Source of the DNA: Chrysochromulina tobinii
Taxonomy: Eukaryota
NCBI GenBank assembly: GCA_001275005.1
Contig: JWZX01003398.1
Span: 1 to 64,000, forward strand
Reading direction: 5' to 3'
Length of the DNA: 64,000 nucleotides
The number at the start of each line of letters is the position of its first letter. Positions within the stretch are counted from its first letter, which is position 1. Under the pieces are notes generated by a model that was not told the DNA's origin, did not search any database, and saw only the letters and a list, made by a program, of their open reading frames with translations. Below, one piece after another: positions 2,956 to 59,762 of the stretch. The position numbers and the translations under genes are program-made.

Positions 2956-5199
2956 ATTATCGCTGGGCTCCTTACAAGTGGGAGAGGCGGCGGAGGCGGG
3001 GCTTGCAGCACGTGGGCGAGTCCGTGCTGCCGAGCAAGATCATGCAGCTCGCGCTTGTCATGCACCATGTACAGGTCAGGCGTCGTCAGGCCGTGGTCGA
3101 CGAGGTGCTGCGCCATACTTCGAAGGCTCAGGTTCCCTGGGTGGACTGATGCAAAAGGCAGCTGAGGTGCTTTCGTCGAGAGACTTCGAGCCGATGCAAT
3201 GCCGCGCTTAGCTGCGGCGATGCGATAGGCTGTGATCCTGCTCATCGCGCGAGGTCGACGCGCTGCCGCCTCAGCCTCAGCTGCGTCCTCGAGATCGAGA
3301 ATGAGGTCCTCGATCAGCTCCTCGACCGCCCTCATGGTCGCCGCTGCTGCTGCCGCCACTTGACGAGTTTGCCTCTGCGCCTCAAATTCCATCGCCTCAG
3401 CCAGGCGCTCGCCCTCTTTCGCAAGCTCCTCGTCCAGGCGATTGCGCGCGCGGCGGCGCGTCTCACCGTCGATGTAGGCGCGCCACGTGCGGAAGACGAC
3501 GAAGATGAGCGCCTGGGGCGTCCGCGACAAAAGGAGTTGCCAGCGTGCCATGGCCATCTCCCTTAAGGACTGCGCCGCCATTGCCATGTCGCTTTGAGCT
3601 TGTAGGACCCGTCCAGATTGAGTACGCTCCTGCTCCAGATTTGCTCCAGATTTGCTCCAGATTGTACGCTCCTGCTCCAGATTTGCTATGCGTACGGCTG
3701 ACTTTGGGATAGTCGCCCAGAGTCGCCGTTTGATGAAAGAGGGCTCTGTGGCTCCGCCACCGTCAGCCACAGTCGCGCTTTCAGGCGACTTTGGCGGATT
3801 GTTGTTCCGTCTGAAAGAGTCTTCCCCTGCTGAGCCTTGAGCCTTCGCTTGAGTCATCGGCGCGGCCATGGGCGCCTCGCCCTCAACACCCGCATGCTCC
3901 GTCGTCGTCGCGCTCACCGGTGCACCTTCGCTCTCGAGTTCGCTGCCCGCCGCCCCATCCTGCTGCTCCTTGGTGTTCCGTGCTGCTCGAAAGCTCCCTC
4001 GTACCCTGGCCGCCTTGGCTGCCTCGGGCGCCGCTGGAGACGGCGCAGGCTCCTCGGGCACGGCTTCGACTGGTCTGGCCGTCGCCGGTGCGAGCCCCGC
4101 CACCGGCTCGATGGCCACCGGCTCCCTGAGCTCCTCTCCATGCGCGTCGAAGAAGCGGAACGCACACGTCACCTGCCGCCCGAGCGGCCAGTAGAGCGCC
4201 TCCCGAGGCGGCGGCAACATCTGCAGATGGATCGCGGCAGTGATGGGGCCGTACTCCTCCTGCACCTCGACCAGCCGTCGGCGCGCCTGTGAAGCATCTC
4301 GCGGAGGCAATCACAGTTCGGTCAGTCGCTCTCAACGTGACCTCAATAGTGCAATCAAGAGGCACTCAAGCGGCATTATATAGATAGGGCATTCGAGTCC
4401 CATTCTGTATGCGCGCCTTGTCTTGCACACGCTCGCGCTTCTTGGCGAGCTCGATGAATTTGAGCGCCTTGGTGCGAGCCGCCTCAATGCGGGCCATCGC
4501 CTTCTTGGCTGTGGCCAAGCTCTGCGAGAGGCTCTGCTTCTTGGCCGTTGCGCCTGCGGTGACGCCTGGAACAGAGGCTGGGCCTGGGGTCAGAGCGGTC
4601 GGGACGATTATTACTGGGTTGCTCGGTTTCGACGTCGTCGTTGTCGATGGCTGCGCATTCGCGTTGGAAGCCGCATCGCTCGTCTCAGCGCTTGCAAGAA
4701 GAACCTCTGCCGCGCCTTTGCCATCCGTGGCGGCGGCGCCGCGACGGGCGCCGGCGGCGCTGCTCCCATCTCCTGACTCTCGAGACTCGCGAGTAGAGCG
4801 AGACTTGCGAGACTTGGCATCGGCGCCTGGCGCCTTAAACTTCGATATAGCATCTGTGACTGTGGCAGCGGCAGCGGCGGCCCGAGAGACTAGAGCGGCA
4901 GCTTCTGCGGCGGCTGCAGCCAATGCGGAAGCTCTTTTCTCGTCTTCAACAGTGGTGGCTAGCCTATGAACGGCAGTCTGGCGCTTGCGCGAGGCCCGAT
5001 CTACCAAGTCCGCCTGCCCCATCAGTTTTGCCCGTTCAACGAGAGCGTCAAGCAGGGCGAGCTCATACTTGCGAAGCTCAACCTTTGAGAGCTTGGACAT
5101 CTCCTTGTCGGTCAGCGGCATGGCCCTTGGGCCGACCGTCTGATCGAGCTTCGACAACGTCCTGTCGCGCAAGAGCTGAGGCGGTGTGTCCGCAGACAT
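1767..5199 (-). CDS. Hypothetical ~1,100-aa low-complexity/coiled-coil protein with IQ-like motifs; exons 5199-4417 and 4286-1767
   Basis: ORFs 4366..5235 and 1767..4310 join in phase 0 across a GC-AG intron (RVQDK|ARRRLVEVQ). IQ-like LQQRLRARL and IQKCWRNFMKRR, a polyQ tract and C-terminal TPRAKAV repeats. Confidence 0.7.
4287..4416 (-). other. 130-nt GC-AG intron with AGGCGCGC at both junctions
   Basis: AAG|GCGCGCATAC...TTCACAG|GCGCGCCG restores the frame; contains GAGTGCCTCTTGATTGC and GATTGCCTCC. Confidence 0.75.
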
Positions 5200-5248
5200 C
5201 CTTTCCAATTTGGAGGCCGTTTTCGTCGCATGCAATTAATAGGGGCGA

Positions 5249-22376: not shown

Positions 22377-24462
22377 ATGGCGGATAGGTCGGAGCCGACG
22401 AGCCGTACAGCTCCTAAGCAGCTAAAGAAAGCGCAAGATCAGAAGCAGGCGCTCGCATCGCTCTGGCTCGACTCATTGATGATGCCGGCGCAGCAACTCG
22501 CGCAGTGCCTGAGTGTGCACGCGCGGGTGCCGCTGCCAGGGGAGCGTACCGCCGTGCGTCCTGTCGTGCGAGTCCAGCTACGCGGAAGCAACGCCGCCCC
22601 TGCCGAGTTCACCGAGATCCTGCTTGCTGTCATGCACCTCCTCATCTACGACCACGATAAGTACGTACAGAAGGTGCAGTCGCTTCTGATGACCATCACT
22701 TCGATCAAGTCGGCCCAGACGCCCTGCGCTGCCCTGATCCTCCCAATGCTACGCATGCACGAGGACTTCCTTCGCAAGGTCGTCTCGGCTTGCTACTATT
22801 GGGTCGGCTCCAACCGGCAGCCACTCCTCGCGCTCAACATCCTCTCGAGCTTTGTGGTCCCAAGTACCTCTGTCGACCTGCCCGCGGCGCGCCAGACGTG
22901 CGCGCTCATCCGCGGGTGGCCGAAATTCTCGCTGCTCGTGCAGGCGTCGCTGCGGCTCGCTCAGGAGCCCGCTACGGCGCTCGTCCTCGGCCGCTTCTGG
23001 GACGCGGTGTTGGGCACTCCGCCACAGTCGGAGCCCGATAGCGCTGCGCTCGCGGATGCGTTGGGCGACCTTGCCAAATCGAGCGACCTCGAGGCGTCCC
23101 TGGATCTGCTGCTGCTCGGGCTGCAGACGCGAGCGCGCGAAGCTTCGATTATCTCGCGCTTTGGCGGCCTCGCCCCGCTCCTCAGGATCACAAGTGCTCT
23201 GCTCATGGCCGACAAGCTCCTTGCGGCCATCGCCGAGCGGGGCGCTCTCTGGTAGCGCGTGCCCTCGGAGTGCCCTCTGAGTGCCCTCGGAATGACCTCG
23301 GAGTGACCTCAATCTGACCTCGGAGTGACCTCGGAGTGACCTCAATCTGACCTCGGAGTGATCTCGGAGTGACCTCAATCTGACCTCGGAGTGATCTCGG
23401 AGTGACCTCAATCTGACCTCAATCTGACCTCCGGTGGCCATCGCACACTCTCAGGTACTTGGTGCACATGGTGGTGGCGATCATGGACGTGGCGGCCGAG
23501 GCAATGAGTGGTGGGTCGGCCAAGTGCACCTCGATGCACGACCTGTTAGCTGCTATGTCACTGGAGGTCATCGCCGTCTCCGTCACCTCAGCCGGCCTGC
23601 TGCCCCATTTCTTGAACCCGGGGGCCTCAGCAGCCGCGGGTGCGCCACCGGGCATGGAGCCTGCGTCTCTGGAGCGCCCTCTGCGCGTCCGGCTCGAGAA
23701 GCTGGTGGCTATCGCCATAGAGCGGCACGCGCAGCCATACCCGCTGCCGCCGCTCGCGCGCCTCCCTGACGCGGTGCGCCGCCTCTACAGCACCATGGAC
23801 CGATATGGAGGCACCCTGCTCATCGAGATGCTGCAGGCAAATGCGATGGATGAGGCCGGCGTTCGGGCGGTCAACCGCCATCTGCTCGTGCTTCCGGAAC
23901 TCGCGCCGGGAGCTGGCGATGGGCAGGTCCCAGAAAGGGGTGCGAGTCTCCGCTCGCTCTCGTTATCGCGGAGCGCCGTCCTGGGCGGCGCGCCTCGTGC
24001 GCGCGAGCTGCCGAGAGTGGAGGTGCTTCCCGCCGAGTTGACGCGCCATAGCACGTGCTATCCCGTGCTGCCGCCCAGCCAACGCTTCGAGCTGATCAAT
24101 GTCAACGTGGCCCAGAGGCATGCCTACGTACCCACGGTATCCATTGTTGGCAGCGGCAGAGGCGTCGGCGTCGGCGTCAGCGTCGGCGTCGGCGTCGGTG
24201 TCGGCAGCGGCGTCGGCAGCAGTGTGAGCGAGGGCGATGATGGCGAGCGCATCGGTCTAGTGGACGACGGCAATGACGTCGATCGGGACGGCACATTTCC
24301 TCCCGAGACCGAGCCAGATCGAGATCCAGATCGAGATCGAGATCGGGACGGCACACTTCCTCTCGAGCCCGAGCCGGATGGCCCTTGGCGGCCGGCTCCA
24401 TCGAAGGCCAACGGCAGCGGCAACACCGAGTCCATTAAGCTGGAAGGCGCTGACGACACCAT

Positions 24463-24504: not shown

Positions 24505-26631
24505 CCACCACCACAATCGTGGTGCCTCTGGTCAAGGGCGCGACGCGGCGTGGACAAGGGCCCTGCACGAGGCGATCATGAGCTTGCCACCGGCCGCGCC
24601 GGAGATCTTGCAACAGTTACCCTATCATCCGCCTCTCAGCAAGGTTGACCCGAGTGATGACAGCTCGGCTGATGACTTCTTGGGTGAGCGTGACGCTGTT
24701 TGGGTTGAGTGGATGAGGGCAGTGGGCACGGTTGGCGCCTCGACAGAGTTCAAGCCGCGTGGCTGGGTACTGCCTGCACGCTCGGCGTTGGATGCTGCCA
24801 ACAGGACAGCCGACCCAGCTCTTGACAAAACTGTCGACGCCGAGCCTGGGACTGCAAAGCCTACACCTCGCGCAAAGCGCGAGGACGGCGAGGGCAGTGA
24901 GACCAGTTCTCCACGCGGCGACATGGGTACGCTGATGGCCACGGATGACCTGCCGGGCATGCAAGTGCTCACCACGGCGCCCTCTTCCCCTTGTCCCACA
25001 GGCGCGGGTTCTCCTCTTGGCGACGATGCCGGCGGCGAGATGCTTGCGCACGACGGCGGGCTTGTGGGTACGAGAGTGAGCAAGGGCGAGGGCGATCGTC
25101 ACTTGGTGCTGCAGGAGCCAGTGGGAGAAGGCAGCGTCATCGTAGAGTACCACGGCGAGCTTGTCGTCGATTGCGACAGCATGGTACGCGCGCTCTCCAA
25201 ATACCACACCGTGTGGCCACCGCTGCTATACATCCTGCGGCTGGGCACCTCGTCGCTCGCCATGGATATCTCTCGTGTGGCGTCCCATGGCCGACTCGCC
25301 GAGCATTGTTCATGCAACCCTACGTGCGAGCTGCATGCTTGTCGTACTAGAGCGTCCGACGGCAGCTGGGTTCCGCGCCTCGTGCTGCTCGCGGGCCGTC
25401 CGCTTGCCTCCGGGCAGCTCGCTACCGTCGACTACACACGCTTCTCAATCTCGGGACGTGAGAGCCATGTGCATGCCGACTGGATTCTGCAGCTGCGCGC
25501 GACCACGCCGGCCGTACGCCGCTTTCCGCCGCCAACCGAAGCCTCCATCACCACGCTCGTCAACACGCATGCCGAGTTGAGCTCCTCGCTCGCGCGCCGG
25601 CACCACGCGATCGCCTCGGCGTGCAGCAGCGCGCAGGGCGGGCGGGGTGCAGCACCCCGTCAGCTGCCGCCGACGAGGCCGAGGGATCGCTCGAGGACGC
25701 GCCCAGCACGGCGCCCTCGGCATCCAGCACGACGCCCAGCACGGCGCCCAAGCTGCCTATCCAGGAGATGCCACCTGCCGAGCAGCAACGCGTGCTCGTG
25801 GGCATCCTCAAGCGGTTGCGCAAGGAGCCGTGCGACCTCCTCCACTGTCGCTTCCGCAAGAGCGAGCAGGCGAGCGAGAGGCGGCTGACCAAGGAGCTCG
25901 CCAAGGAGGCGGTGGGTCTCGAGGTGTCCAAGGCCGCCGTGGGCGCCGTGCTGGGCGGCGTGGGCGGGCGGGCAGCGAGCGGCGGACGTGGGCGTGGCCG
26001 CAGCGCACGGGGCAGGGGCGGCGGTCCATCCGCGGCGCAGCCGGCAGCATCGCTCGTCGGAGGGAGCTTTGACGAAGTGGACGAGATGACTCATGAGGCC
26101 GAGCGACCTGCATGCAATGAGGGAGGCGATCGCGAGCTGCATGCAATGAGGGAGGTGACTCATGAGGCCGAGCGACCCACCGGTCTCATCAGTACTCTCG
26201 GCTTCATGGAGCGACCCACCGGCCGCGGTCGAGGCTCTCGCGGCGGTGGCCGTGGGCCAATTGGTGGTCGTGGCACAGGTGGTGCCAAGAGGGAACGCGA
26301 CGCGGCGATGGGCGCTGGCAAGGACGGATACGACTGGAGGCAAGGATGGAAGCGCGTGGTCACGCTACCCGTGGGCAATTCGCCCCCCCCAGTGCCGACC
26401 GGTGTCCAGCCTGGCTGGCCTGCTGCCGAGCAGTCTGGATTTGCCCCAATGCAGACCGGCGACATGACGAGCGACGCGCGCGCACCGCAGCAGTTTCTGC
26501 CCATCGCCCCTTGGAACCGTCAAGCGGGCTACAGTGCAAGCGAGGATACCGGTACGGATCCGTCGGCCATGTATGTGGCCGATGACTCCATGGACAGCGA
26601 GCAGCAAGCCGGGGATCTCGCGGTTGACTGA
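22377..26631 (+). CDS. Large multi-exon protein with a divergent SET-like domain; 3' junction near 25620-25670 unresolved
   Basis: ORFs 22182..23255 and 23459..25888 join via intron 23252..23454 (GALW-YLVHM). SET-like IVEYHGELV, GRLAEHCSCNPTCE and RPLASGQLATVDY. ORF 25621..26631 is the probable continuation. Confidence 0.6.
23252..23454 (+). other. 203-nt GT-AG intron largely made of ~11-nt tandem units (GACCTCGGAGT / GACCTCAATCT)
   Basis: CTG|GTAGCG...CTCTCAG|GTAC restores the frame and removes an in-frame TAG. Confidence 0.85.
26108..26176 (-). other. 69-nt intron-shaped insertion antisense to the host ORF
   Basis: 22-bp direct repeat at 26087-26108 and 26156-26177; minus strand reads GT...CCTCCCTCATTGCATGCAG|GT. 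Confidence 0.7.
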
Positions 26632-27115: not shown

Positions 27116-28815
27116 TCACGCCTCCACCGTGGCTGCACTTGGCAGAGCGCTCGCCGTGGCGCGCCAGCCAGCCTTGAGCTGCTCAAAGTGCATCTTTACC
27201 TTCTGCTGCATCCCGTCGTGATAGGCCAAGTTGCGGTTCTCGAGCGGATCCGCCGTCAAATTGTAGAGCTCAAAGCCACAATCTTTCTGTTCCATGGTCC
27301 ATGTCGTCTCGTTCCTGATGCCATCGAAGTCGACCCACGCGGTGAAGCGCACCTCGACGAGGCGCATCGAGTAGCCCATGATCTTGGGCGGGCTCCCCTT
27401 CCGCGGATACTGTGAGTAGCTTGCATTCTTCCATGCGCGCGTCGGGTTTTTGATGAGGGGCATCATGGAAGTGCCTTCAGTGCAGAGCGCCGTCTTCCAC
27501 GGCTTTGCAACCGGGCACACAGGAACCGGCGGGAGACCGGCGGCTTCGATGAGCGTCGCCATGATGTCCACGTGCTCGACGAGGGCATGCGAGACGAGCC
27601 CGCCATCCGTCAGCCCGGGGATACGCAGAAGCACGGGCGCCAGGGTATCCTCCTGAAAATTGGTATGCTTTGCCCAGGCGCCATGGTGCCCCAGCTTCCA
27701 CCCATGATCGCCCCAGAAGATGACGATGGTCGAATTCCAGAGGCCTAGCACCTGATGATGGAAGCAATCAGTGGTCATCATTGGTCATCATTGGTCATCA
27801 GCACACAGCGCTCGATGGTCGAAATCCAGAGGCATAGCACCTTGAGCTCGTTGAGCAGTGCGCCCATGTTGCTATCCGTGAAGCTCAACGCCGCTTGGTA
27901 CGCCCGCACCAGCTCGAGGGCTTTCCAGTCGGGGAGAGTCTCATTGATGGCGCCGGTGAAGCCCAGGGCGGCGACGTCGCTGTAGCTTTGGAGCTCCTCA
28001 GATGCGTAAGCGACCGCAGGCATGTCCCAGGGCGCGTACGGGTTAGGCGCGAGCTGCGTATCCGCTGCGGGGTAAAGGTCGAAGAAGCTCGACGGCGCGA
28101 CAAAGGGCAGATGTGGCTTGCGAAGCCCCACCGCCAAGAAAAACGGCTGTGGGGTCTCGCCGTTAACGAGCGCAGAGCGTTGGGCAGCCGCGAGACGGCG
28201 CATCCACATGAGACCGTGCTCACGGACTTGCGAGTCCTGGCACAGGCCGACCACACTCTCGTTGACAGACCTCCAAGAGAGCCCTGACCCTTGCTCCGAA
28301 GCTTGCAGCTCCGAGATGTCGCCCTCGTGCCATGGCCAGAAATCGGCTTTCGGTTGACACTGGCCGGGTCCGTCGTCCTGGCCCAAGAACCAACCGTCCT
28401 TGCCCGTGGTCGTGCCGTTGAAGTCGGTCCACGAATTCGGGTCATCATAATAGGATGCGTGGCCATCGTGAAAGATCTTGCCCATGCCCACCGTGATGTA
28501 ACCGGCCGCCGTGAAAATACCGGGGATCGTGATGCAGTCGGCGCATCCCACCTCACGCGTGTTATCATACAGGTTGTAGACGTGCGTCGTATCCGGGCGG
28601 CGACCATAGAGGACGCTCGTGCGGCTGGGCGAGCACACAGCTTGCTGCACGTGCGAGTTTGTCAGAAGGATCGCGTCATCCATGAATTTGTCAAGGTTTG
28701 GCGTCATCATGTACTTGTACTTGAGCGTCTGTGGCTCTGGCCAGCGGTTGATCATCGGCCGCAGGTCGTCGTTGGGGATGAAGAGCACGTTCGGCCGCGT
28801 CGCGATCGACATCAT
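27116..28815 (-). CDS. Formylglycine-dependent sulfatase (iduronate-2-sulfatase-like), 2 exons
   Basis: RPNVLFIPNDDLRP, CSPSRTSVLYGR (CxPxR), GMGKIFH, GLRKPHLPF, GDHGW and ELYNL..DPLE. Intron 27752..27840 joins ELK|VLGLWNSTIV. Confidence 0.92.
27752..27840 (-). other. 89-nt intron: exon duplication + TGATGACCA repeats + 3' cassette
   Basis: 27724-27753 and 27813-27842 are 30-bp direct repeats with 2 mismatches; ends CTGATTGCTTCCATCATCAG. Confidence 0.9.
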
Positions 28816-30766: not shown

Positions 30767-32501
30767 ATGATGGGTCACGCTCAGTTGCTGAGCCTGTGGC
30801 TGCTGCCCACCACGGCACTTCATTTTGCCGTGCCCGGCCGAAGCGGCTGCAGCGGCTGCAGCGGCTGTATCATCCGTCGTCGCTCGCCGCCAGCCGCCAT
30901 GGCCGCCTTTGGCGCAGAGACCATCAACGTGGAGCCCGGTGCGAAGTGCTATCTCGTCGGCGCAGTAGTCAAACGCGACCGATACAAGACGCTAGTCAAT
31001 TCGTGGGGTATCGATGACTCCCTTGATGAGCTGCAGCGGCTCTGCGAGACGGCGGGTCTCGAGGTGCTTGGCCGCGACTACCAAACGCTTCAGCACCCGT
31101 CACCTTCGACCTTCATTGGGCAAGGCAAGCTCGACGAGATCGCGGCTTTGGTGAAATCGATGCGCGTGAGCACAGTCATCTTCGACGAGGAGCTCACGCC
31201 GGCCCAGGGCCGTAACATCCAGAACGTGCTCATCGAGGCATGCGGCGAGCAGGTGCAGGTCCTCGATCGGACAATGCTCATCCTCGTCATCTTTTCGCAG
31301 CGCGCGCGCACGAGCGAGGCCAAGCTGCAAGTGGCTGCGGCGCAGATGAAGTACATGCTGCCGCGTCTCAAGTTCTTCCTCACGCAAGGTGCGGGTATGG
31401 ATGCCAAGGGTGGCAGCGGCGGCGGCATGTTCCTCAAGGGCTCCGGTGAGACCCAACTTGAGGAGGATCGCCGACTCTTTCGCAAGCAGCTCGGCAAGAT
31501 TGAGGACGATCTGGCGGCGGTGCAGGCGCAGCGCGACATGCTGCGCGCCAAGCGGCGCGAGGGCGATCGGCGCCCCGTCGTCGCCATCGTTGGGTACACG
31601 AACGCAGGCAAGTCCACGCTGCTCAACACCCTCTGTGGCTCCTCGGAGGTGTATGCGGACGATTTGCTGTTTGCGACGCTCGACCCGACGAGCAGACTAC
31701 ACGCGCTGCCCGGCGGCAAGGAGGTGCTGCTCACGGACACGGTCGGCTTCATCCAGAAGCTGCCCACCAAGCTCGTCGCCGCCTTCCGCGCCACGCTCGA
31801 TGAGCTTGTCGATGCCACCTTGCTCGTGCACGTGGTCGACGCCTCCTCAGAGATCGCCGTACAGCAGGTGCGCTCTGTCCAGGGCATCGTCAAAGAGCTC
31901 GAGGCGAGCGGCAAGCCACAGATCCTCGTGCTCAACAAGGCTGATGCCGTCGGTGCCGACCCGACGCTGGCGGCTCGTGCTGCGTCGACCGACTGGCTCC
32001 ACCTGGACGGCGACGTGACGCCGTGCGCGGTGCTCGCCATCCCGCTGAGTGCCTCTGATGACACTGCGGGTGCTCGCCATCCTGCTGAGTGCCTCTGATG
32101 ACACTGCAGGTGCTCGCCATCCTGCTGAGTGCCTCTGATGACACTGCAGGTGCTCGCCATCCCGCTGAGTGCCTCTGATGACACTGCAGGTGCTCGCCAT
32201 CTCGGCCCGCGATGGACGAAACCTCGATAAGCTCCGGAAGGAGATCGAGGCGGTTCTCGTGCGGATGTCCATCCAGGTCGAGTGCGTTCTCCCCTATGCC
32301 GAGGCCGCGCTCCTCGCCGAGGTCCATAAGACAGGCACCATCAGTACAGAGGAGTACGTGGATAAAGGCACGCGTCTCGTAGCCGCCGTGCCACTCTCAC
32401 TACGGAACCGCCTCGAGAAGGCATGCGTCACCGCCGCGACGCCCTTCAGCGCCGCGGACGTTACGGCCAAGGAACCGGTCAAGAGCCCTTCGGCACCTTG
32501 A
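30767..32501 (+). CDS. hflX: GTPase HflX, probably plastid-targeted; exons 30767-32029 and 32190-32501
   Basis: GETQLEEDRR, G1 GYTNAGKST, LFATLDPT, G3 DTVGFI, G4 NKAD and G5 ISA after splicing; N-terminal signal plus transit peptide. Confidence 0.95.
32030..32189 (+). other. 160-nt intron made of four tandem 40-nt units
   Basis: Unit GTGCTCGCCATCC(C/T)GCTGAGTGCCTCTGATGACACTGC(A/G)G x4; removal restores VTPCA|VLAISARDG. Confidence 0.9.
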
Positions 32502-34590: not shown

Positions 34591-37349
34591 TCAGGACAAA
34601 TTTCGTTGAGGCAGGGCGGCGGTCTTGTGGCCCTCGGAGAGCTTTGGTGGGGGCTTCTTGCCCTCAGCAGCGGCGCCTCCAAACAAGTCGAACGGTACAT
34701 CCCTCTCTTCCTCGTCTGTAGAATTCCCCATCGAATCTGAGTGACAAGCGGCCGCATGATCTTCTGGCGCGGCAACAGCCGGCGCTGCTGCTGGTCCTGC
34801 TGCTGGTCCTGCTGCTGGTCCTCCTGCTGGTCCTGCTGCTTGCCCTGCTGCTGGTCCTGCTGCTGGTCCTGCTGCTGGTCCTGTCGCCGGCACCTCCGCA
34901 GGCTCCTCCTCGCCAAGCGTTGTCCCGGGAAGCTCCCGCTCAAATGTGAGGGCCGTCGCCGCGTCGGCCCCGGGCTCGTGCTCGTAGGCGATGCCGTACT
35001 CATTGGCGCGGGTCTTATCGACCGGGTACAGGTATCGCTGGTACAAGAAGACCAAGAAGACGACGTCATCGCGAAGGCACGCGATCTTATGGTGGAGCGG
35101 CATCGAGACGAGCAGTGCAAACGCGTCGTCGATGAAGGTGTTGAAGGCCTTGTAGGCCATCACTCGCCATGGCATGTGTGCCACGCTCTTGAGCTTATAG
35201 TTGATGAAGAGCTGCGGCGTCATCGAGACGAACCCAAAGAGGTACACCGAGTCGGCCAACGATGAGATGACCCAGCTGTACCAGGTCGTGTGGGGGTAGT
35301 ACACGAGTGCATAGATGGCCCAGCCGCCCACTAGAGGCGCGAGCCCCACACCCAAAGTGCGCGTCGCAATCTCGTCAAAGCGCTCCGTCGCTCCCTCAAG
35401 CCTCACCCGCGCCGCCGCCGCTGCCCTGGTCTGCGCCGCCGCCGACCTCGTCTGCGCCGCCGCCGCCGCCGCCCCTGCCGCCCTCGTCTGCGCCACCGCC
35501 GGCGCCGCCTCATCCACCATGCTCGCCGCTGCCGTACCGGTCCCCGGCATCGCCGAGCGCGGCGCCGTGCCGGGCGGCGACGAATCGTCTTCATCGATAC
35601 GCGCCGCGGTGAGCGCCGTGTTGTGCGCCGTGTTGAGCAGCGCCGTGCCGGGCGGCGACGAATCGTCTTCATCGATACGCGCCGCGGTGAGCGCCGTGGT
35701 ACGCGCCGTGTTGAGCACCGTGTGAGGGAGGGTGGCGGCTGCTGCGCCACCCTCCGCGTCAGCCCCCGTCGCCCCCGTCGCTCGCGTCGGCTGCGTCGGC
35801 GGCCTCGTCGCTGCCTCGCGCGCTGCGGCCGACACCGCGGCGGCCTGCGCCGCGGCGTCCTGCGCCGCGGCGGCCTGCGCCGCGGCGTCCTGCGCCGCGG
35901 CGGCTACCCGTGCCCTAGACGCGCGTAAGATCTGGAGCACACGCACCACCTTCCACAGCTCGACAGCGGTCGAGAAGGTGTACGTAGCCAGCACAATCGA
36001 GTTGAGGTTGTCGGCGTCGAGTAGGTAGAGGTAGATGATGACAGTCTGGGCGGCGGACGAGATCACCGCGCGTGACGAGAGGCCGCTCATCGTCTCCTTT
36101 CCCTTCCAGAAGCCAATGTCACTCCGAAAGGCGAGCACGTCGAAGATCACGTGCAGGATGGAGATGATCTGTGAACCACCCCGCGCAAGGACGGCCAGTC
36201 AGATGCAGTGGCGCCATGGCAGACGCTCGGAAGGCACGGCGCAATCGCAGGTATTCGGAAGGCACTCGAGGGCGTGCGCGCGTCACTCTACCTGCATGCA
36301 ATGAGGGAGGTCATCAATGGCCATCGGAGGTCATCAGAGGTCATCAGCGAGGCGTGCGTATGGCACTCTACCTGCATCACCACGAATCGGTACAGGCGCT
36401 CCTCGGACAAAAGCTCGCGGATCTCGTCGAGCTCGGTGCCGAGACCGAGGCTCGCACCTGATGAGGGAGGCAATCAGAGGTCATCAGAGGTCATCAGAGG
36501 GTCATCAGCATCTCGCCCGAGGCCGAGGCTCGCACCGAGCGACTCAAAGAGTGAGCCAAGCTGCGCCATGATCCGGTGCCGACCGACCGAGATCGGCTTG
36601 AACTTGAGCTTGAGCCGCGGATGCGCCTTCTGCACGTCTGCCGACAATGGCAGCGCGTGCTTGCGCAGCAGCGAGAAGGTGTCCACGTAAAAATGGGGCG
36701 CGTACGTGCGCGCGTGCACGTCCCAGGACTGGCCTATCGGCGTGCCGTCGGGTGCCAAGAACGGCGACGCATACGCCCGTGCGTCCGTCACAAGCCGCAG
36801 CTCGCACATGCGGTACGAGTAGATGAAGTGCGGCACGCGGCCGTGGCGGTCAGCCGGCGCCAACTCGGCGGAGACCGTGCTGCTCGTGCTGGGGGCCTCC
36901 GTCACCGCCGGCTTCTCGTCGCTCGACGCGAACACGTCACCGAACACGTCACGCTCGAGCAGCATGCTGGCCTGCGAGCGCTCGCGCGCTTCGTACATCT
37001 GCACAATGTTGACCCTCGCCGCGGAGAGCACGTCGTCCGAGCCCGTGCGGGAGAGCTCAAACGTGAGCCACAGCTCGCGCATCTCACCTCGGCGCACGCT
37101 CGGTGGCACGGGAGTCGTTATTGCCGCCTCGAGCTCTTCGACCGAGCTCACGTTGGTCACGTTCCACACGGCGGCCCGAATGGCTCCTTCGCCCATGTGC
37201 GCTGTGATATCAACACGAGCTCCCCACGGCAATCTTGGGTGGTAGCAGCCATGCCGGAGCTTGCAGGCCGGAGGATAGAAGAGCACATAGAATTCCTTCG
37301 CGGACATTGCGATCCAGAGCACCATGACTGCTCCCACGTAGGTCCACAT
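34591..37349 (-). CDS. CLPTM1: CLPTM1-family multi-pass membrane protein; introns 36458..36535 and 36169..36371
   Basis: ILHVIFDVLAFRSDIGFWK, GLSSR, MTPQLFINYKLKSVAHMPW, YKAFNTFIDD, HKIACLRDDVVF and YQRYLYPVDKTRANEYG. Confidence 0.92.
36169..36371 (-). other. 203-nt compound intron: 80-nt unit (36292..36371) abutting a 123-nt unit (36169..36291) with no exon between
   Basis: ATGCAG|GTAGAGTG occurs at both the outer donor and the internal junction; only removal of both units gives VVMQ|IISILHV. Confidence 0.85.
36458..36535 (-). other. 78-nt intron: exon duplication + TGATGACCTC repeats + CTGATTGCCTCCCTCATCAG
   Basis: GGTGCGAGCCTCGG(C/T)CTCGG at both junctions; removal restores ESLGASLGLGTELDEIR. 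Confidence 0.9.
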
Positions 37350-38734: not shown

Positions 38735-40425
38735 TCAACGTAGAACAGTGCCAACGCGGCGGTTGGCACTCGACAGGTTGACGAGCGGCTTCCACTCTCG
38801 CGGCAACTGCTGCACGTTCGCTGTCGCAGCCCGCAAGATATTGTCGTCCTGCACGTCGCTCCAATTGCCCATGCCATCAACGGGCCTTCGCGCGACGAGA
38901 ACGCACGAGATGGACAGCCACTGCTTATCCGAGTGGTCGTCCTGCTTCGCACTGAAGTTCGAAATTAGAGCATGGCGGAGGTGCTCATGGTGTATGTCGC
39001 CTACGCCCAAGCCCAGCAGATAGGCGGATGCCATATGCGAATCCCCCACCTTTTTCACATCGGTGATCTCGAACCCGGCCTGTGTTAAGATTTCCTGCGC
39101 CCCCATGCACGTGTACCGGAAGTAGTCGCCCGCCTCGTACGAAAAGTGGAAGCGCTCGAGGAACGGGGCCGACCAGAAGACGAAACCACCCGGACGTACC
39201 TGATGAGGGAGGCAATCAGCATGCACTCAGGAACGGGGCCGGCCAGCAGACGAAACCACCCGGCCGTACCAGCTGGAAGAGGCCACGCGCGGCTGCGAAC
39301 GGGTCCTTCACATGCTCAAAGACCTGTCGACAAGTGGTTGTACATCGCACGCGGTGGGTCGGAAGGGCGGGTGCAGAGGTTGGACGCGGAGTAGGGTGAA
39401 GGACGGAGCCCAAGCAGCACAGCCACGCAGAGGGGATGAGCTCAGCGAAGGTGCTCAGTCTGCACACCTGATTGCACACGACCAAGTCGAAGGATGAAAG
39501 GAAGGGCCCCAAGTCTCGAAATCTCGCCCCAAATCTCGCCCCCAAGTCTCGAGGATGCTCCGAGATGGCCACCAGACTGCACGCAAGTCCGAACACGCAC
39601 GTGAGCAGGGCTGCACAGCTGCACGGCGGCCAGCCCCCCAACGCAGCATACGGCGGCCAACGCAGCGCCACCCCAGGCCGTCCGGCAGCAATGCTCGAGC
39701 GCTGCAAAGGCGGCATGTGCTTCACTCTCGTGAGTGGCGAGCGGAGCGCACTCCGATCCCAAGATGCGCTTTGCCTCGTTGACCCGAACGATGGACTTTT
39801 TAGCGTTCTTCGTCCCGTGGTACGAGAACGTCCAGATCTTGGCTGGGTCGCACGCGGGTACGAGCTTTGCGTGCTTCTCGTCCCAGCTCAAGCACCTCGC
39901 GCCACTCGGCACGATCCTGGCCATGTCCTCAAAGTAGCGGGTGAAGCCCCAACGCCCAATGATGCTCTCGTCGAGCTCCCACGACCCTCGGCGATGGCCC
40001 CATGGCGATATTGGCAGCAGGCCACCAACCCACATGAAGTTGTGCATGGCAATAAACGCAGCTTGCAGCTGCTCGGACCCGATGAACACGGGATGGTTTC
40101 TTATGGTCACGTTCTTTGGCGGCACCCAGGCTCGACCTCTATCATAGTACGGTGCATCAAAAGGAACCGCCTTGTGTGCATCAAGCCATGCCTCCACGTT
40201 CCGATACATTGTCGGCCGCAGATTCAGACAACGTTTCAGGATGGCAATTGCGCGGCGGCCTTGCAGGACTTCAAGCGACTCTGATGTGGATGGCAGCTTT
40301 TGGTCGAGACGACGATGCCCATCCTCAGGCGAGAATAGCATGACGTGCTGACCAAGCAGAAAGCCGACGCAGCCAGATACCACGGCCCACAGCACGTGGG
40401 CCGACACAGGTACCACGATCGCCAT
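38735..40425 (-). CDS. Membrane-anchored class I SAM-methyltransferase-like protein; introns 39200..39269, 39324..39467 and one unresolved near 39510-39750
   Basis: N-terminal TM helix; spliced FDLVVCNQ|VFEHVKDPFAAARGLFQL|VRPGGFVFWSAPF...DYFRYT resembles Methyltransf_11/23-type motifs. Confidence 0.7.
39200..39269 (-). other. 70-nt intron: 41-nt copy of the downstream exon + 29-nt cassette GAGTGCATGCTGATTGCCTCCCTCATCAG
   Basis: 39229-39269 repeats 39159-39199 with 3 mismatches; GT...AG ends; removal restores the frame. Confidence 0.9.
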
Positions 40426-49600: not shown

Positions 49601-52022
49601 GACGGGAACTGACTTTGATGGCGTGTGGAGGTTTCTGAATCGCTACAGTGGTGTCCGCTGGGGCTGGCAGTCTCCGGGGGCTTGGATCGGCTTCCGGGAC
49701 GGCCTCGACACGCTCGACGCGGAGCGCTTCTCCGAGGCCAAGTTCGGCGCGCTACCCAGAAACTGGCGAACGATGTCCTTGCGCGCATCGCAGTCGCCTG
49801 AGAGCCAAGCGTTGCTTCTGAATCGGCAGCGTTCGATCTGCCACTCGTTGGCAGCGTATGGTTGTCGTCTAGAGATAGACGAGGCCACCGACCTTGGCAA
49901 GGTAGCACTAGCTTATGGCAACGGCACCAACGACGTCAACCCAGACGTTTGGCGGAGCGACTACGGCATGTTCATGCAACGCCTGGACAACAGCTCCGGA
50001 AGCGTGGGCTACTGGTGGCAGGGCCCGACAGACCAGCTGTACGGCCGCTTCTCGCGGGGCTTCGCGCGCCCGCAAGCGACTATTGAGCTCTTGCTGGACC
50101 AGGGACTGTGGGGTGGGCTCCCGCTGACCCCACTGTGGAATGGGGAGCCAAGGCTTGTTCACCTCACTGTGCGCCTCGTGTTCCTCGACAGCTCAGTCGG
50201 CAAGTTTTTCCTTGGGTACGACGCCTTGGACGGCCCCCGGGGATGGGTGGTCGACACCAAAGGCACGTCGCGCTGGCGGGAGGTCACCTTTGCTATCGAC
50301 AATGGACGCTTTGCCCGCGGTGACGGTAGCGGGCCCAATGGTGCCGACGTGTGGCTGCGCGACATGAGCCCATGTGACAGTTGGACCGACGCCGACTGCG
50401 CTCAGAAGCCGACGCTCTTTGACAGCCTCGAAGTGGTTGATGTGGCGAGGGACCAATCAGTTGTTGACCCCGCGCAGTTTATCGACGAAGATCATCACGT
50501 GCGGGTAGACCCTGAGCAACTTGTTGGTGAAGATCATGATTACTACGTGCTCCCCGCGAACCCCGCACCTCCCTTGCTCGCCGCCAGTGCACCGTGCCAC
50601 TGGGGACACGACACCCTGGACGTGCCGTGCGCCCTGTGGGCCCACCAGGGCGAGTGCAAACTTATCCCTGAGTTTATGCACGCTAAGTGTGCTGCGTCAT
50701 GTGGCTGCCCCGCGCCTGATTTTACTCGAACGAGTCTGACCTCGTCCACCATCGCCGCGGAAAAAGCAGTGGCAGACCGAGCGGCGGCGGAGAAGGCGGC
50801 GGCAGAGCGTGCGGTAGCGGAGCGAGCGGCGTGGGAGCGAGCGGCGGCGGAGCGAGCGGCGGCGGAGAAGGCGGAAGCGGAGCGAAGGGCGGCGGAGCGA
50901 GCGGCGGCCCAGAAGTCGGCGGAGGAGGATGCGGCGGCAGAGAAGGCCCAGCCAGCCTCGGGCGGCACACCGGTCCGCACAACTCCCCCGTACCTCAAAA
51001 CACCGACCAGAGTCGATGCGCCAGTCCAGCCACTCCACCTCAACACAGCACCGGCCACAACCGAGATCAAGACACCGGCCACGGTCGAGGAGCCCAAATT
51101 CGCTCCTGGCCCAAGTCCGACGGCACCAGCCTCGGGGACGGCAGTCCGCAGAACAGATGGCAGAACTCCGTGGTACCTCCATACACCGGCACCGTTTGAG
51201 ACGCCGATGACGACCCAGCCGACTGCGCCGGCCATCGCCGAGAACAAAGCACCAACCTTGGTCTATGCGCCGACCTTAGCCACGCCAACCGCGCCGGCCA
51301 CGGCAGTACGCCGAACACCGTGGTACCTCAATACACCGGCCACGGTTGTTACGCCGATCACGACCCAGCCGACCGCACCGGCCATCGCCGAGATCAAAGC
51401 ACCAACCTCGGTCTATGCGCCGACCTTAGCCACGCCAACCGCGCCGGCCACAGCAGTACGCAGAACACCGTGGTACCTCAATACACCGGCCACGGTTGTT
51501 ACGCCGATCACGACTCAGCTGACCGAGAAGGCGGCGGCCGTGAAGGCGGCGGCCGAGAAGGCGGCAGCCGAGAAGGTGGCGTCCGAGAAGGCGGCGGCCG
51601 AGATGGCGGCGGCCGAGAAGGCGGCGGCCGAGAAGGCGGCGGCTGAGAAGGCGGCGGCCGAGACAGAGCGCCTGGCAGCCGAAACAGCAGCAGCCGAGGC
51701 AGCGGAGGCGAAGGGGGCGGCGGCGCGCAAGCCGAGCTTGCTATGGAAGAAGCGATCAACTAGTGCACTTGTGCCAGAGCCCATCAACTTTGCAACTCCG
51801 CTCCCTCTCGATTTTGTACCCGTTCGCAAGCCCAAGTCGCCCGAGGGCAGCGAGGCATCGGGTGAGCATTCCAATACCTTTGCGACTCCGCTCCCTCTCG
51901 ATTTTGTACCCGTTCGCAAGCCCAAGTCGCCCGAGGGCAGCGAGGCGTCGGGTGAGCATTCCAATACCTTTGCAACTCCGCTCCCTCTCGATTTTGTTCC
52001 CGGGCGATTAAAAGCACCATGA
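40692..52022 (+). CDS. Giant 3,776-aa secretory-pathway multidomain protein: ShKT x3, Pro/Thr/Ala repeats, GT8 glycosyltransferase, 3 sulfotransferase-like domains, GH42/GH35-like barrel, AEKAA repeats
   Basis: Sh[12 protein letters not shown]...[11 protein letters not shown]8 RFYLP, DDDIVVQ, NLTEWR and [10 protein letters not shown] (~42330-43460). [14 protein letters not shown]-binding loop (~47080). [17 protein letters not shown]...PQWL (~48490). Confidence 0.85.
45210..45790 (+). repeat. Coding tandem repeats [36 protein letters not shown], ~110-125 bp unit
   Basis: Visible in DNA and translation; locally A/G-rich. Confidence 0.9.
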
Positions 52023-57109: not shown

Positions 57110-57566
57110 GCGTCGAGCAGAGCCAAGATGGCGACTCGAAGGGGTTGCGCCGACCGGAGTGACTGTCGTGTCCGTCCACTCGTTTGCCAAAGAGATACTT
57201 ACAGCTAAACGACACCGGAGACGTAGGAGAACGTAGCAGCGCATTAGTCAATAGAGACGAAGTCTCACTCGACTGTCACTCAAATAATATTATTAACGGA
57301 ATGCGCATCTCTCCCGGCCCGGCCGCCCCTCACCGCGCACCGGGGACCGGGCATATCTCGTATTACACAATACACATGGACCCCTCACCCGGTACACGAC
57401 ATATATCAAGCCCCAATCAAAGCGAATGCGCATGATGGGTCTAAACCGCGGGCGGTGAAACCGTACTGCTACATGCCATTGGAAGGGACCCTCGTACAGA
57501 ATGCCGCCGTAGGTGATCAGCGGTTGGCATGGCATATTCTCGCAACTCTCCACCCTCCCACGCTTT

Positions 57567-59762
57567 CTACTCGATCGGGGTGAAGTCGACGTAGTCGGCA
57601 TCACCCTCATTCGGATCGGCTCGCGACTTGCGACGGGCGCGTTCCAGTAGCACGCCGGCGCCAAGGAGGACCGCGAGGGCACCGAACGCAACGCGCACGC
57701 TTGGGTAGGAGGCGAAGGCCACGCTACCGCCCGAGCTTCCCTCCACGTGCGCCGCCGCCAATCTCGGCGCGTATGCGAGCAGTTGCATAGCCCATCCTTG
57801 CGTAGCAGGAGGTGCCTCATACCAGCGCGCAGGGCACGCGGATGCCACACCAGCGTCTTTGAAATCGGTGACGTTGCGAGGAAACCAGCCGCGCTCATGG
57901 GCCTCCAAAAACGACCAGTGCTCGCTGAACTCTGTTCGGAAGTTCCAGAAAAAGGACCTGCGGCGAGAGACGCAAGCGAGCATGACGATGAGGCGCAACG
58001 CAGGCACGTAGCAGGGCGTGCGCTACAACCAAAGAGGATGTAGCATCACGCACCCGTGGGCCTTGTTCCATGAGTTGATGAGTCGCTTGGCAAGTCCACC
58101 CACAAAGGCATCCTCGTCATCCCACTTTTTGTAGGCGGGGCATTTGCCGAACTCGGGCCCCGATTGCCCCTGACCGCGCGGCCCTTGGTACGGCAACGAT
58201 GGGTCCGGAGCTTTGTGCTTCGCATCTCCTGTGTAACCGTCAGGGCACGTGACCATCTCACACGCACTCTTCGGATAGCCCGGCTGGTTGTCGTTGAAGC
58301 CGTTGAGCCACATGCAGCAGCTGTCGGTCGCTAGAGACCACTCGCCGGTGATCATGGGCATGTCGAGGAACGTCTCCATGTCGTGCAAGATCCCATCCAG
58401 CCCGCACGCCTTGTTGTGGTAGAAGGAGGCCTCCTGATCATACTCCCACGCCATGTACGTGTGCGTGTCCATCGCTTTGTTGGGGCATCCACGCATAAAG
58501 TCCCACCAAAGAGCGGGATACCCTCGGAATGAGTCTTGCATCACGTACTTCCAGCTCGGCACGCGTGCACGCACCTGTGACAAAGCACCGTGTTCGCGCT
58601 CGAGGATGGCATGAGGTGAGAGCAGCGATGAGAGAGGATGGCATCGGGTGAGAGCAGTGATGAGAGAGTCGATGGTCTCTCAGGCCGCGCACCTTCTGGT
58701 AGCCGTCCCAATAGAACTGCTTGAGCGGCTCGATTGGAGTAAAGTACCAGGGTTCGTTGAGAGGCTCCAGGCCCCAGATGACGGGCTCCTGCTGGTAGCG
58801 GTCAATGATCACGTCGAGGACGGACAGCGAGTGGTTGATGTGTTCATAGTTGTACTCCCCGCCGTCTGCAGAGGGCGAAGGTAAGGGGAGAGATGAGTCG
58901 CAAGAAACGGCCGCCAAAGGAAGCCGCACATGGCGCGCAGCTCACATGTCCACTTCGCCAAGTCCCAAGTGCCGATCCAGTCAGCACTGCGCACGCCCCA
59001 GTGGTTAAAGACAGGCAGCCCTGTGGCGGGGTCGAGGTCCCACTTGAGGTTCCACGTACGCCCCGAGTTGTCGAACCCATTCTGCGAGCCCGGGGCGGTG
59101 TGTACGTCGATCAGCATCTTGAGGTTATATTTCCGGCAGAGCTCGATGAGGCGGTTGAGCTCTTCGAGCGCGCCATCCCAGCAGCCAATGAACGGCTCCC
59201 GCGGAACGAAGATCCCTACGAGGTGAGCAGAAAGAAGCGTTCAGAGTCGGCGCAAAGTGAGGGCGTGGCATGGAGATCGAAGCGTTTGGCACTCACAGTC
59301 CGGGACCGGGACGCGGATGACGTTGGCTCCCGCTGCTGCGATGGCCTTGACGTCCTCATCACGAACCCATGCTGCCCAATGCAAGCGAAGCTGCCTATTT
59401 GCCTCATCGTCACCGAGGACCGTGCAGAAGGAGTAAGCATCCATCGCAGTGTGCGCCGCAGTCTCTTCCACGCTCTTATATTTCTCGTCTGTGCCAAGGA
59501 ACTGATAGAACAGTGACGGCGTCACCCACGGCTCAATCACAAGCCAGCCACCTATCGCCGGACCGGATACCTTCCAATTCTCCTCCGGGTCCGTGATCTT
59601 GACACCTTCGGGACAAGAGTATGGATTGTTGGCGTTGAGCTGGAGACTTGGAATTGAGAATGTCGGCAGTTGAGCCCCATCTTGTGATCGTACAGCAGGC
59701 GGAGACCCACGCGCGAATGCGCTGCCCAGAAGCAGCATGCGAGACGTGGTGGTGATGACCAT
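57567..59762 (-). CDS. Glycoside hydrolase family 5 exo-1,3-beta-glucanase-like, C-terminal TM anchor; introns 59216..59296, 58866..58945, 58575..58692 and 57958..58053 (start codon uncertain)
   Basis: GGWLVIEPWVTPSLF, IRVPVPDW, LIDVHTAPGSQNGFDNSG, LNEP (acid/base), GEWSLAT (nucleophile) and FFWNF; all four introns are GT-AG and join these motifs. Confidence 0.92.

What the first reader, a model, noticed from the sequence alone, without database searches (positions are those of the whole stretch)
4287..58692. A shared intron-building module: variable-length target duplication + repeat-extended 3' splice cassette in unrelated genes
Seen: introns at 27752-27840 (sulfatase), 32030-32189 (hflX), 36292-36371 and 36458-36535 (CLPTM1) and 39200-39269 (methyltransferase-like) begin with a near-exact ~13-41 nt copy of the sequence that follows them. 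All but hflX then carry 0-4 copies of a ~10-nt unit (TGATGACC(T/A)N) and a common tail: CTGATTGCCTCCCTCATCAG is identical at 36458 and 39200, with variants at 27752, 36292 and 26108. The hflX unit shares only the GAGTGCCTCTGATGAC part. Weaker relatives are 4287, 23252 and 58575. Established: introner elements (Micromonas, Aureococcus) are short DNA transposons that create introns with short target duplications; CTGAY fits the branch-point consensus. Inference: there are no terminal inverted repeats, the duplication length varies widely, and the foreign part is only branch point + pyrimidine tract + AG with variable repeat number. This resembles templated, slippage-prone synthesis from a short template at a staggered break (RT/telomerase-like addition or templated repair), with the host's duplicated GT as donor. 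No catalytic gene is in the window. Whether this family is already described cannot be checked here.
Basis: partly seen in the sequence, partly recalled or inferred. Interest (0 to 1): 0.92.

Follow-up and report, generated by a model that had tools for sequence, protein, structure and literature searches.

The report
Introns built by copying splice acceptors
In a freshwater alga, many short introns consist of a duplicated piece of the host gene followed by a shared splice-acceptor end; some are missing from close relatives, and they likely spread when DNA repair copies the end of one intron into a new site, a route to new introns that transposon-based surveys would miss.

Summary
Real and genome-wide. 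The window is Chrysochromulina tobinii/parva DNA. Five named units are confirmed: a 12-41 nt copy of the following sequence, then ~10-nt units and a shared acceptor. RNA contigs skip the sulfatase unit exactly. The 36292 unit copies an older intron's donor, and the intron removed is 203 nt. A sister lineage lacks the hflX and 36458 introns on unspliced DNA, so these are likely recent gains. Across 146 lake and culture sites, 76 carry the duplication (chance 2.8%), 9-55 nt long, starting at G|GT, in sense coding sequence. Best mechanism: homology-guided copying of an existing intron's 3' end into a staggered break. Two unrelated genes share one 73-nt intron and 12 nt of downstream exon, the top pair of 8,846 on both counts; neighbouring introns share private cassette variants. 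Not a classical introner (no fixed duplication length, no element-length inverted repeats); a published survey lists none for C. tobinii. The scan noted this family before on other DNA of this genome (e1-2577349). Enzyme and template (DNA or pre-mRNA) are untested.

The parts
27752..27840 (-). 89-nt intron in an iduronate-sulfatase-like gene: 28-nt copy of the next exon (27813-27840), spacer, three 10-nt units, variant tail
   Evidence: RNA contig X15 record 10 skips 89 nt here; spliced protein collinear with P0175, P0176, P0178
27724..27751 (-). exon copy of the 28-nt duplication
   Evidence: 26 of 28 identical to the intron start
32030..32189 (+). 160-nt intron in hflX: four tandem 40-nt units, each a 12-nt exon copy plus a 28-nt acceptor cassette; absent in a sister haplotype
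   Evidence: spliced translation identical to P0141/P0142 over 378 positions; intron-free haplotype on 7-44 kb contigs
36292..36371 (-). 80-nt unit stacked on the donor of an older CLPTM1 intron; copies that intron's first ~21 nt; also present in the sister lineage
   Evidence: joint 36168-36372 in three RNA runs; P0164, P0228, P0231 read into it
36169..36291 (-). older 123-nt intron without duplication or family tail; together with the unit above it forms the 203-nt intron that is removed
   Evidence: 46%-identical relative P0168 leaves the frame at the same codon
36458..36535 (-). 78-nt intron in CLPTM1: 19-nt exon copy (36517-36535), spacer, three units, exact tail; absent in a sister haplotype
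   Evidence: model P0216 splices it; P0164, P0228, P0231 lack it on unspliced DNA; RNA record 14 geometry fits a 78-nt skip (inferred)
39200..39269 (-). 70-nt intron in a methyltransferase-like gene: 41-nt exon copy (39229-39269) plus 29-nt cassette with exact tail
   Evidence: unspliced frame stops within about ten codons, spliced frame open; model P0274 splices it; collinear with 19 of 20 located homologues
26108..26176 (-). 69-nt candidate unit: 21-25 nt duplication plus two copies of the variant tail; host gene and splicing not established
   Evidence: no Pfam hit
4287..4416 (-). 130-nt GC-AG intron with diverged cassette-like units but only 6 nt shared with the next exon; possible old member
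   Evidence: removal opens a 1112-codon frame; not checked in RNA
23252..23454 (+). 203-nt intron filled with a different 11-nt repeat; no duplication; shared with the sister lineage; not a member
58575..58692 (-). 118-nt intron with a 32-nt internal repeat; 5 nt shared with the next exon; not a member

Best explanation
These are spliceosomal introns of Chrysochromulina tobinii/parva, each made of a duplicated piece of the host gene plus a shared acceptor end, at least two of them likely recent gains, and they likely arise when repair synthesis at a staggered break copies the 3' end of an existing family intron. Steps. Shown: the structure exon | X-copy + repeat units + acceptor | X; exact removal from RNA at two sites; absence from a sister haplotype at two sites; a few traceable donors. 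Inferred: two nicks 9-55 nt apart leave X single-stranded on both ends, which duplicates it; one end primes on another family intron by a few matching letters, copies its units and AG, runs into that donor's exon start, and rejoins the target where donor and target share G|GT plus following letters. This puts the AG flush against X and makes X start at a donor-like GT. Each new intron recreates an AG|GT junction, so it can be the next donor and the next target, which makes the family self-propagating without a transposase. Selection keeps sense, in-frame products of at least about 63 nt, and slippage of the ~10-nt units later changes length. Untested: the polymerase (Pol theta-like or a reverse transcriptase), the source of nicks, and whether the template is DNA or unspliced pre-mRNA.
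For: Duplication in 76 of 146 distinct tail sites against 2.8% for mismatched pairs. In 49 free-standing events it is 9-55 nt long, 96% identical (1110 of 1157 letters), starts GT or GC in 44, and total length is never under 63 nt. 28 of 29 scorable events lie in sense coding sequence. The AG abuts the duplication directly or on the same diagonal in 63 of 72. L051 and L110, unrelated genes, hold 73-nt introns alike at 71 letters; only L110's own exon explains the full 20-nt start; they share 12 nt of downstream exon, and among 8,846 unlinked pairs this is both the longest shared exon start and the one long shared cassette that is not plain repeat units. L094: two introns 200 nt apart share a private 22-nt cassette and 6 nt of exon start. 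Neighbours share at least 8 nt upstream of the tail in 16 of 45 pairs against 2.5% of 8,840 unlinked pairs. At least 2 nt of microhomology at the X|cassette joint in 17 of 33 scorable events against 19% (15 of 31 without two nested events, p 2e-4). 24 of 62 events abut another intron unit. Intron-free alleles and outgroups.
Against: Only two or three donor-recipient pairs are traceable; the 45 neighbour pairs are not independent and only 4 of 17 neighbourhoods share a private variant. Shared exon start is not significantly longer for neighbours (p 0.18) or for look-alike unlinked cassettes (p 0.05). 29 of 62 joints could not be scored for microhomology. Backward homology with the tail does not exceed a donor consensus (none over 3 nt in 49). 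Three events join the AG flush to a non-GT site with 0-1 shared letters (L126, L080, L120). The cassette starts exactly at a branch-like A in 8 of 33 (p 0.014), which suits a lariat template. About half of the tail sites show no duplication (63 of 135). The near-absence of antisense or non-genic copies, and two gains at three testable sites within 1-4% protein divergence, ask for a more directed process than ordinary repair (inference). The duplication-cassette anticorrelation (rho -0.67) is stronger than a simple 63-nt cut-off gives (-0.13) and is unexplained.
Confidence: 0.55

Rival explanations
1. Excised intron RNA is the template: either a reverse transcriptase primes on the lariat's 3' end at a nick (target-primed reverse transcription), or the spliceosome joins the intron's 3' end to the sense DNA strand at a G|GT site (partial reverse splicing) and a nick 9-55 nt away primes copying that stops near the branch point.
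For: Fixed 3' end, variable 5' end and variable duplication are the geometry of target-primed insertion (established knowledge). Sense-only, coding, donor-like targets and stacking at existing junctions. Cassette starts at a branch-like A in 8 of 33. Flush AG at non-GT sites. Reverse splicing into R-loop DNA is a favoured hypothesis in PMC11146597 (passages); partial reverse splicing of linear group II introns gives precise 3' and truncated, microhomology-rich 5' joints (PMC3280974 passages).
Against: An excised intron carries no downstream exon, so it cannot explain the 12-nt (L051/L110) and 6-nt (L094) exon homologies. [quoted passage not shown] In the group II case the overhang is lost rather than duplicated. 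No RT among 55 window ORFs scanned, but the rest of the genome was not available.
Confidence: 0.18
2. One reading: a dedicated short master template (small RNA or locus) is copied by a telomerase-like or RT enzyme that adds a variable number of units at a break.
For: One exact 20-nt tail in 203 matches over 136 loci; a small unit inventory, five 10-mers making 82 of 196 counted. Read on the opposite strand the cassette has a fixed 5' end and a variable repeat tail with microhomology at that end, as in some SINE/LINE tails (recalled).
Against: Private cassette variants shared between neighbours and one whole-intron copy; alleles differ by whole units; the 25 longest matches between unlinked cassettes are all plain units; no Rfam match in the window or 9 loci, no tail in viral or prokaryote collections; no significant hairpin. 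The host genome could not be searched for a master.
Confidence: 0.1
3. Two steps: a plain tandem duplication of 65-90 nt of exon makes a weak intron, and gene conversion from other family introns later overwrites its 3' part with the cassette.
For: Would explain why duplication plus cassette add up to a narrow length (median 83 nt; rho -0.67). Tandem duplication is a demonstrated route to introns (PMC3443670 passages). Plain tandem copies of whole units are common here (20 of 82 events; hflX).
Against: In 27 of 49 free-standing events the upstream exon does not end in AG, so the plain duplication would have had no acceptor and would have broken the gene before conversion.
Confidence: 0.09
4. 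Incomplete intron loss: spliced mRNA or cDNA repairs a break inside an old intron, replaces its 5' part with the start of the next exon and keeps the old 3' end.
For: Gives the same structure and the joint microhomology. The 36292 unit and many stacked units lie at existing intron positions.
Against: Predicts old positions: hflX, 36458 and the sulfatase site are read through without an intron in sister or outgroup ORFs. The 36292 unit copies intron, not exon.
Confidence: 0.05
5. A miniature DNA transposon (classical introner) that carries the acceptor and takes its donor from the target duplication.
For: Same polarity as Symbiodinium and Polarella classes 4-6, 8, 10 (bioRxiv 10.1101/2020.10.14.339549); the tail has a 5-nt inverted repeat.
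Against: Duplications run from 9 to 55 nt rather than a fixed 3-8 nt; the 5' end of the insert is not conserved (cassettes 22-190 nt); sense orientation only.
Confidence: 0.03

Closest known systems
Introner-like elements of Symbiodinium and Polarella glacialis, classes 4/5 and 6/8/10 (bioRxiv 10.1101/2020.10.14.339549; parts 1-2 of 4 read)
   Same: Many new introns; acceptor carried by the insert, donor recruited from the 5' end of the target duplication; downstream exon starts with a donor-like motif.
   Different: There the duplication is fixed per class (3-8 nt) and elements are DNA transposons, with inverted repeats in Symbiodinium; here 9-55 nt, variable 5' end, cassette copied from other introns.
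Intron gain by repair of staggered double-strand breaks (Daphnia; as summarised in review PMC3443670, passages; the original paper was not held)
   Same: New introns flanked by direct repeats from filled-in staggered ends; polymorphic within or between close lineages.
   Different: In Daphnia 43% have short repeats and the inserts are of mostly unknown or mitochondrial source; here the insert is a repeated family acceptor, the repeat is long and supplies the donor, and the process feeds itself.
Tandem genomic duplication and intron transfer (review PMC3443670, part 1 of 6 and passages)
   Same: Duplicated exon sequence supplies the donor; L051/L110 is a homology-guided transfer of a whole intron.
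   Different: Classical duplication needs AGGT to give both splice sites and has no foreign insert; intron transfer is between paralogues (recalled), whereas here 12 nt of chance homology between unrelated genes sufficed.
Haptophyte introners in the Gozashti surveys: Emiliania huxleyi fam24 (5 copies, '10bp terminal direct repeats', co-opt 5' carry 3'; PMC12130899 supplement row) and Chrysochromulina sp. Tara MAG family (4-bp duplication, no TIR, carries 5', co-opts 3'; bioRxiv 10.1101/2022.06.06.494994 passage)
   Same: Same algal group; the E. huxleyi family has the same polarity and may be a glimpse of the same process.
   Different: The marine Chrysochromulina example has the opposite polarity and a fixed 4-nt duplication; C. 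tobinii is listed with 0 introner families. Sequences of these families were not seen.
Retrohoming of linear group II introns by partial reverse splicing plus Pol theta end joining (PMC3280974, passages) and the intron-lariat-spliceosome hypothesis (PMC11146597, passages)
   Same: Precise intron 3' joint, truncated 5' joint with microhomology and filler copied from nearby sequence.
   Different: No ribozyme or RT here; that pathway loses the overhang instead of duplicating it; spliceosomal reverse splicing into DNA is undemonstrated.

Membership tests
Spliceosomal (U2-type) intron | GT/GC...AG ends and exact removal from RNA | tested here: met
   RNA contig skips 89 nt at the sulfatase site; 203-nt joint in three RNA runs; spliced hflX, CLPTM1 and methyltransferase proteins match database proteins or homologues. 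Splicing efficiency not measurable from contigs.
Introner (broad: repeated, recently gained introns of one sequence family) | Shared sequence in introns of many unrelated genes | tested here: met
   203 exact tail matches in 136 loci, 146 distinct sites
Introner (broad: repeated, recently gained introns of one sequence family) | Absent from orthologous sites in close relatives | tested here: met
   hflX and 36458 absent in a sister haplotype on unspliced DNA; 36292 present in it; sulfatase site absent in 55-66% identical relatives. Protein-level evidence from ORF calls, not DNA alignments.
Introner (broad: repeated, recently gained introns of one sequence family) | Similarity over the whole intron length | tested here: not met
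   5' part is site-specific host sequence; only the 3' 20-60 nt are shared; one exception L051/L110
MITE-type introner (DNA transposon) | Fixed short target-site duplication | tested here: not met
   9-55 nt in 49 free-standing events
MITE-type introner (DNA transposon) | Terminal inverted repeats at both ends of a conserved element | tested here: not met
   5' end of the insert varies (cassette 22-190 nt); only a 5-nt inverted repeat within the tail, folding no better than shuffles
Non-LTR retrotransposon product (TPRT) | Fixed 3' end, variable 5' end, variable target duplication | tested here: met
Non-LTR retrotransposon product (TPRT) | Copies are collinear 5' truncations of one master with a partner RT/endonuclease | tested here: inconclusive
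   No shared non-repeat upstream sequence among the 25 longest unlinked matches; no RT in 55 window ORFs; genome not available
Telomerase-like repeat addition | One short template RNA; repeat number set at synthesis | tested here: inconclusive
   Alleles differ by whole units and neighbours share private variants, which removes the need for it; template RNA could not be sought
Templated insertion at a staggered break (Pol theta-like or template switching) | Tandem duplication with an insert copied from another locus, microhomology at both switches | tested here: met
   Entry microhomology 15 of 31 vs 19%; exit homology 12 nt in L051/L110 and 6 nt in L094; filler matching the target at 6 or more nt in 12 of 40 vs 13%, several of them nested events
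Templated insertion at a staggered break (Pol theta-like or template switching) | Dependence on a named repair polymerase | not testable with these tools
   needs genetics or biochemistry
Tandem genomic duplication (AGGT model) | Both splice sites come from a duplicated AGGT, no foreign insert | tested here: not met
   27 of 49 upstream exons do not end in AG; all carry a foreign cassette

The most novel reading that the evidence does not exclude
Chrysochromulina has a self-propagating, transposase-free way of making introns in which unspliced pre-mRNA serves as the repair template: a DNA end at a G|GT site primes on another transcript's AG|exon junction, is reverse-transcribed back through the acceptor, branch point and repeat units, and is joined to the duplicated target, so that splice signals themselves behave as a mobile unit and have built hundreds to thousands of introns within a 1-4% divergence window.
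Probability: 0.25. Interest if true: 0.93.

Novelty: new variant of a known kind. Interest (0 to 1): 0.8.

Why it matters
Where new introns come from is a long-open question, and bursts of gain are currently credited to transposons (PMC12130899 passage). Here gain appears to be under way at scale through a chimeric route: half of each intron is host sequence, half is copied from another intron. Surveys that look for whole-intron similarity miss it (C. tobinii is scored 0 families). Every event records its duplication length, its joints and sometimes its donor, the alga is in culture, and an intron-free sister lineage exists, so DNA versus RNA templating and the role of the spliceosome can be tested directly. 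It also explains broken public gene models, such as hflX models that stop inside the intron.

Tried and rejected
No whole genome was held for the window and the records behind the loci were not held, so no genome-wide count, donor search or RT search was possible. Direct read evidence exists for two junctions only; 36458, 39200 and hflX rest on contig geometry, gene models and homologue alignment. Tail or repeat patterns in viral contigs and genome contigs: no match. Rfam on the window and 9 loci: no match. Pfam on 55 window ORFs: no RT, transposase or nuclease. Hairpin of the cassette: not better than shuffles. Resemblance of the units to hammerhead or C/D-box motifs is recalled, had no Rfam support and was dropped. 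Assembly artefact: rejected, as the same units occur in independent assemblies and as ORF ends in many records. Universal 3' consensus: rejected (36169-36291, 23252, 58575 lack the tail). A single 40-nt hflX unit in P0001, P0261, P0264 may be assembler collapse and was not used. Rows dropped before counts: 57 of 203 matches (duplicates or short flanks); 20 of 82 self-tandem events; 16 redundant loci; 20 of 49 events with short flanks; 29 of 62 unscorable joints; 11 of 146. Literature: ten searches listed no paper describing this family; the library lacks most subscription journals, supplement files 13-14 of PMC12130899 were not searched, the PMC9860276 supplement was cut when stored and only rows 1-32 of 214 Chrysochromulina places were seen, and the 10-11 bp intron repeats of E. 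huxleyi (Read et al. 2013) are recalled only (one search found nothing).

Full report
Observation. The named units are in the sequence. Intron start against following sequence: 26 of 28 nt at 27752-27840, 12 of 12 at 32030-32189, 17 of 21 at 36292-36371, 18 of 19 at 36458-36535, 38 of 41 at 39200-39269, 24 of 25 at 26108-26176. The 18-nt tail matches three times at up to two mismatches and never in 100 shuffles. The hflX intron is four tandem 40-nt units. The three weaker relatives share only 6, 3 and 5 nt with the next exon and are not counted as members. Pfam supports the four host genes. Named cluster members place the DNA in Chrysochromulina tobinii (KOO20977.1, KOO20971.1) and C. parva.

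Splicing. Contigs of three RNA runs and one lake DNA run were laid on 22000-40500. X15 record 10 runs through the sulfatase gene and skips 89 nt, the intron length. All three RNA runs join 36168 to 36372, so the 36292 unit is the front of a 203-nt intron: it duplicated the donor of an older 123-nt intron. For 36458 the skip is inferred: X15 record 14 resumes at 36523 and the joint above has a 73-nt side, which fits 36372-36444 and a 78-nt gap. For hflX, contigs of all three runs stop at 32041 and one starts at 32189, the edges expected where spliced and unspliced forms branch; proteins P0141 and P0142 equal the spliced translation at all 378 compared positions. Public models P0216 and P0274 splice the CLPTM1 and methyltransferase introns the same way, and the spliced methyltransferase is collinear with 19 of 20 located homologues. 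The RNA runs also hold many cassette-bearing contigs, so DNA carry-over or partial retention cannot be excluded.

Recent gain. ORF calls on environmental DNA show two lineages. For CLPTM1, P0164, P0228 and P0231 (7-10 differences in 182-260 residues; P0231 on a 20-kb contig) read straight through the 36458 site and then into the 36292 unit, so they are unspliced DNA that lacks one unit and has the other. For hflX a haplotype 3-4 residues away (nine proteins, contigs up to 44 kb) never has the insert; a contig of the same 44,106-nt length yields P0320, which stops at the 23252 intron, so calls on it are unspliced (same contig inferred from length). Outgroups read through the 36458 site (P0167-P0169), the hflX site (P0018, 67-kb contig) and the sulfatase site (P0175, P0248, P0249), while P0168 leaves the frame where the old CLPTM1 intron begins. 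Gain is the simpler reading. One sulfatase allele (P0173) has an intron start that translates like the exon, as expected of an originally exact copy.

The family. Lake and culture copies of the same locus are mostly about 99% alike. GT follows the tail at 93 sites and GC at 23. A duplication scoring 10 or more lies upstream at 76 of 146 sites against 2.8% for mismatched pairs. Of 82 events scoring 9 or more, 49 stand free, 13 sit directly behind another acceptor and 20 are self-tandem and were dropped. Free-standing duplications are 9-55 nt and 96% identical, 44 of 49 start GT or GC, 40 of 49 follow a G, and no intron is under 63 nt. In 28 of 29 scorable events a codon model trained on window genes prefers the sense strand, and in 20 both flanks are sense and in frame after exact removal, against 187 of 600 random pieces. 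The AG abuts the duplication at offset 0 in 51 of 72 and on the same diagonal with early mismatches in 12 more. 24 of 62 events abut another unit, often with a different cassette.

Where the cassette comes from. It is n copies of a ~10-nt unit with a branch-point-like core plus the tail; the 25 longest matches between unlinked cassettes are plain units, and alleles differ by whole units, so repeat number is at least partly later slippage. Donors can sometimes be traced. L094 has two introns 200 nt apart with the same private 22-nt stretch and 6 nt of shared exon start; L023, L068/L069 and L079/L080 also share private variants; 13 other neighbourhoods do not or are tandem copies at one site. 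L051 and L110 encode unrelated proteins but hold 73-nt introns alike at 71 letters; the 20-nt start is explained by L110's exon only, and the two exons begin with the same 12 nt, the longest of 8,846 unlinked pairs (next 9). The template therefore included the donor's downstream exon, which an excised lariat lacks. At the other joint, 2 or more letters of microhomology occur in 15 of 31 events against about 19%.

Mechanism. Most likely (0.55): staggered nicks duplicate X; repair synthesis switches by short homology onto another family intron, copies its units and AG, and returns where the donor's exon start matches the target's G|GT. Each product offers a new AG|GT junction, so the family feeds itself. 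The structure, splicing, polymorphism and traced donors are shown; nicks, enzyme and DNA-versus-pre-mRNA template are inferred. Against it: few traceable pairs, no significant general excess of shared exon start, three flush joints at non-GT sites, a slight excess of cassette starts at the branch-like A (8 of 33), and an unexplained tight coupling of duplication and cassette length (rho -0.67 against -0.13 from a cut-off alone). Rivals: excised-intron RNA template 0.18, dedicated master template 0.10, duplication then conversion 0.09, incomplete loss 0.05, DNA transposon 0.03.

Comparison with what is known. It works like acceptor-carrying introners of dinoflagellates, whose duplications are fixed at 3-8 nt (bioRxiv 10.1101/2020.10.14.339549, parts 1-2 of 4 read), and like repair-born introns of Daphnia (review PMC3443670), but it fails the membership tests for MITE-type introners and for plain AGGT duplication. 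The 2025 survey lists C. tobinii with 0 families and an E. huxleyi family of 5 with 10-bp direct repeats and the same polarity (PMC12130899 supplement rows). The marine Chrysochromulina example of the 2022 survey has the opposite polarity. The C. tobin genome paper mentions introns once, as a count (PMC4580454 passages). Ten searches listed no description of this family, within the limits given under Tried and rejected.

Verdict. Observation largely right, interpretation partly right. A new variant of repeated intron gain with an unusual, testable mechanism. Interest 0.8.

Noticed in passing
L126 (-), L080 (-), L120 (+): In three events the duplication starts 25, 24 and 23 nt upstream of an existing donor, not at GT, and creates a small flanked exon copy; the spacing recalls the exon-junction-complex position (recalled), but three cases may be chance.
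   Followed up: partly
L051 and L110: Near-identical 73-nt introns in two unrelated genes with 12 nt of shared downstream exon: a whole-intron transfer guided by short homology.
   Followed up: yes
L108, L112, L044: Tails on both strands within about 200 nt; either inverted insertions or assembly joins through the semi-palindromic units.
   Followed up: no
window 30701-32189: Public hflX models of C. parva (P0122) and of this DNA (P0135) stop inside the intron and lose the C-terminal part.
   Followed up: yes
window 23259-23431 and 58602-58668: Other introns are filled with different short repeats (11 nt and 32 nt); E. huxleyi introns are recalled to be rich in 10-11 bp repeats, so repeat-filled introns may be a haptophyte trait (one search found no paper).
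   Followed up: partly
window 18-1487: Satellite of 189-nt units, 7.7 copies.
   Followed up: no
window 33059-33961: Many diverged RNA contigs pile on this ORF, so it belongs to a multicopy expressed family with no Pfam match.
   Followed up: no
window 40662-52022 (+) and 12434-21673 (-): Two very long open frames (3786 and 3079 codons); the first has a ShK-like domain, a GT8 glycosyltransferase domain and 66-nt repeats shared with 60710-61168; the second has no Pfam match.
   Followed up: no
window 4287-4416 (-): GC-AG intron whose start varies between alleles by a short internal duplication (P0299, P0305, P0307, P0308, P0310).
   Followed up: no
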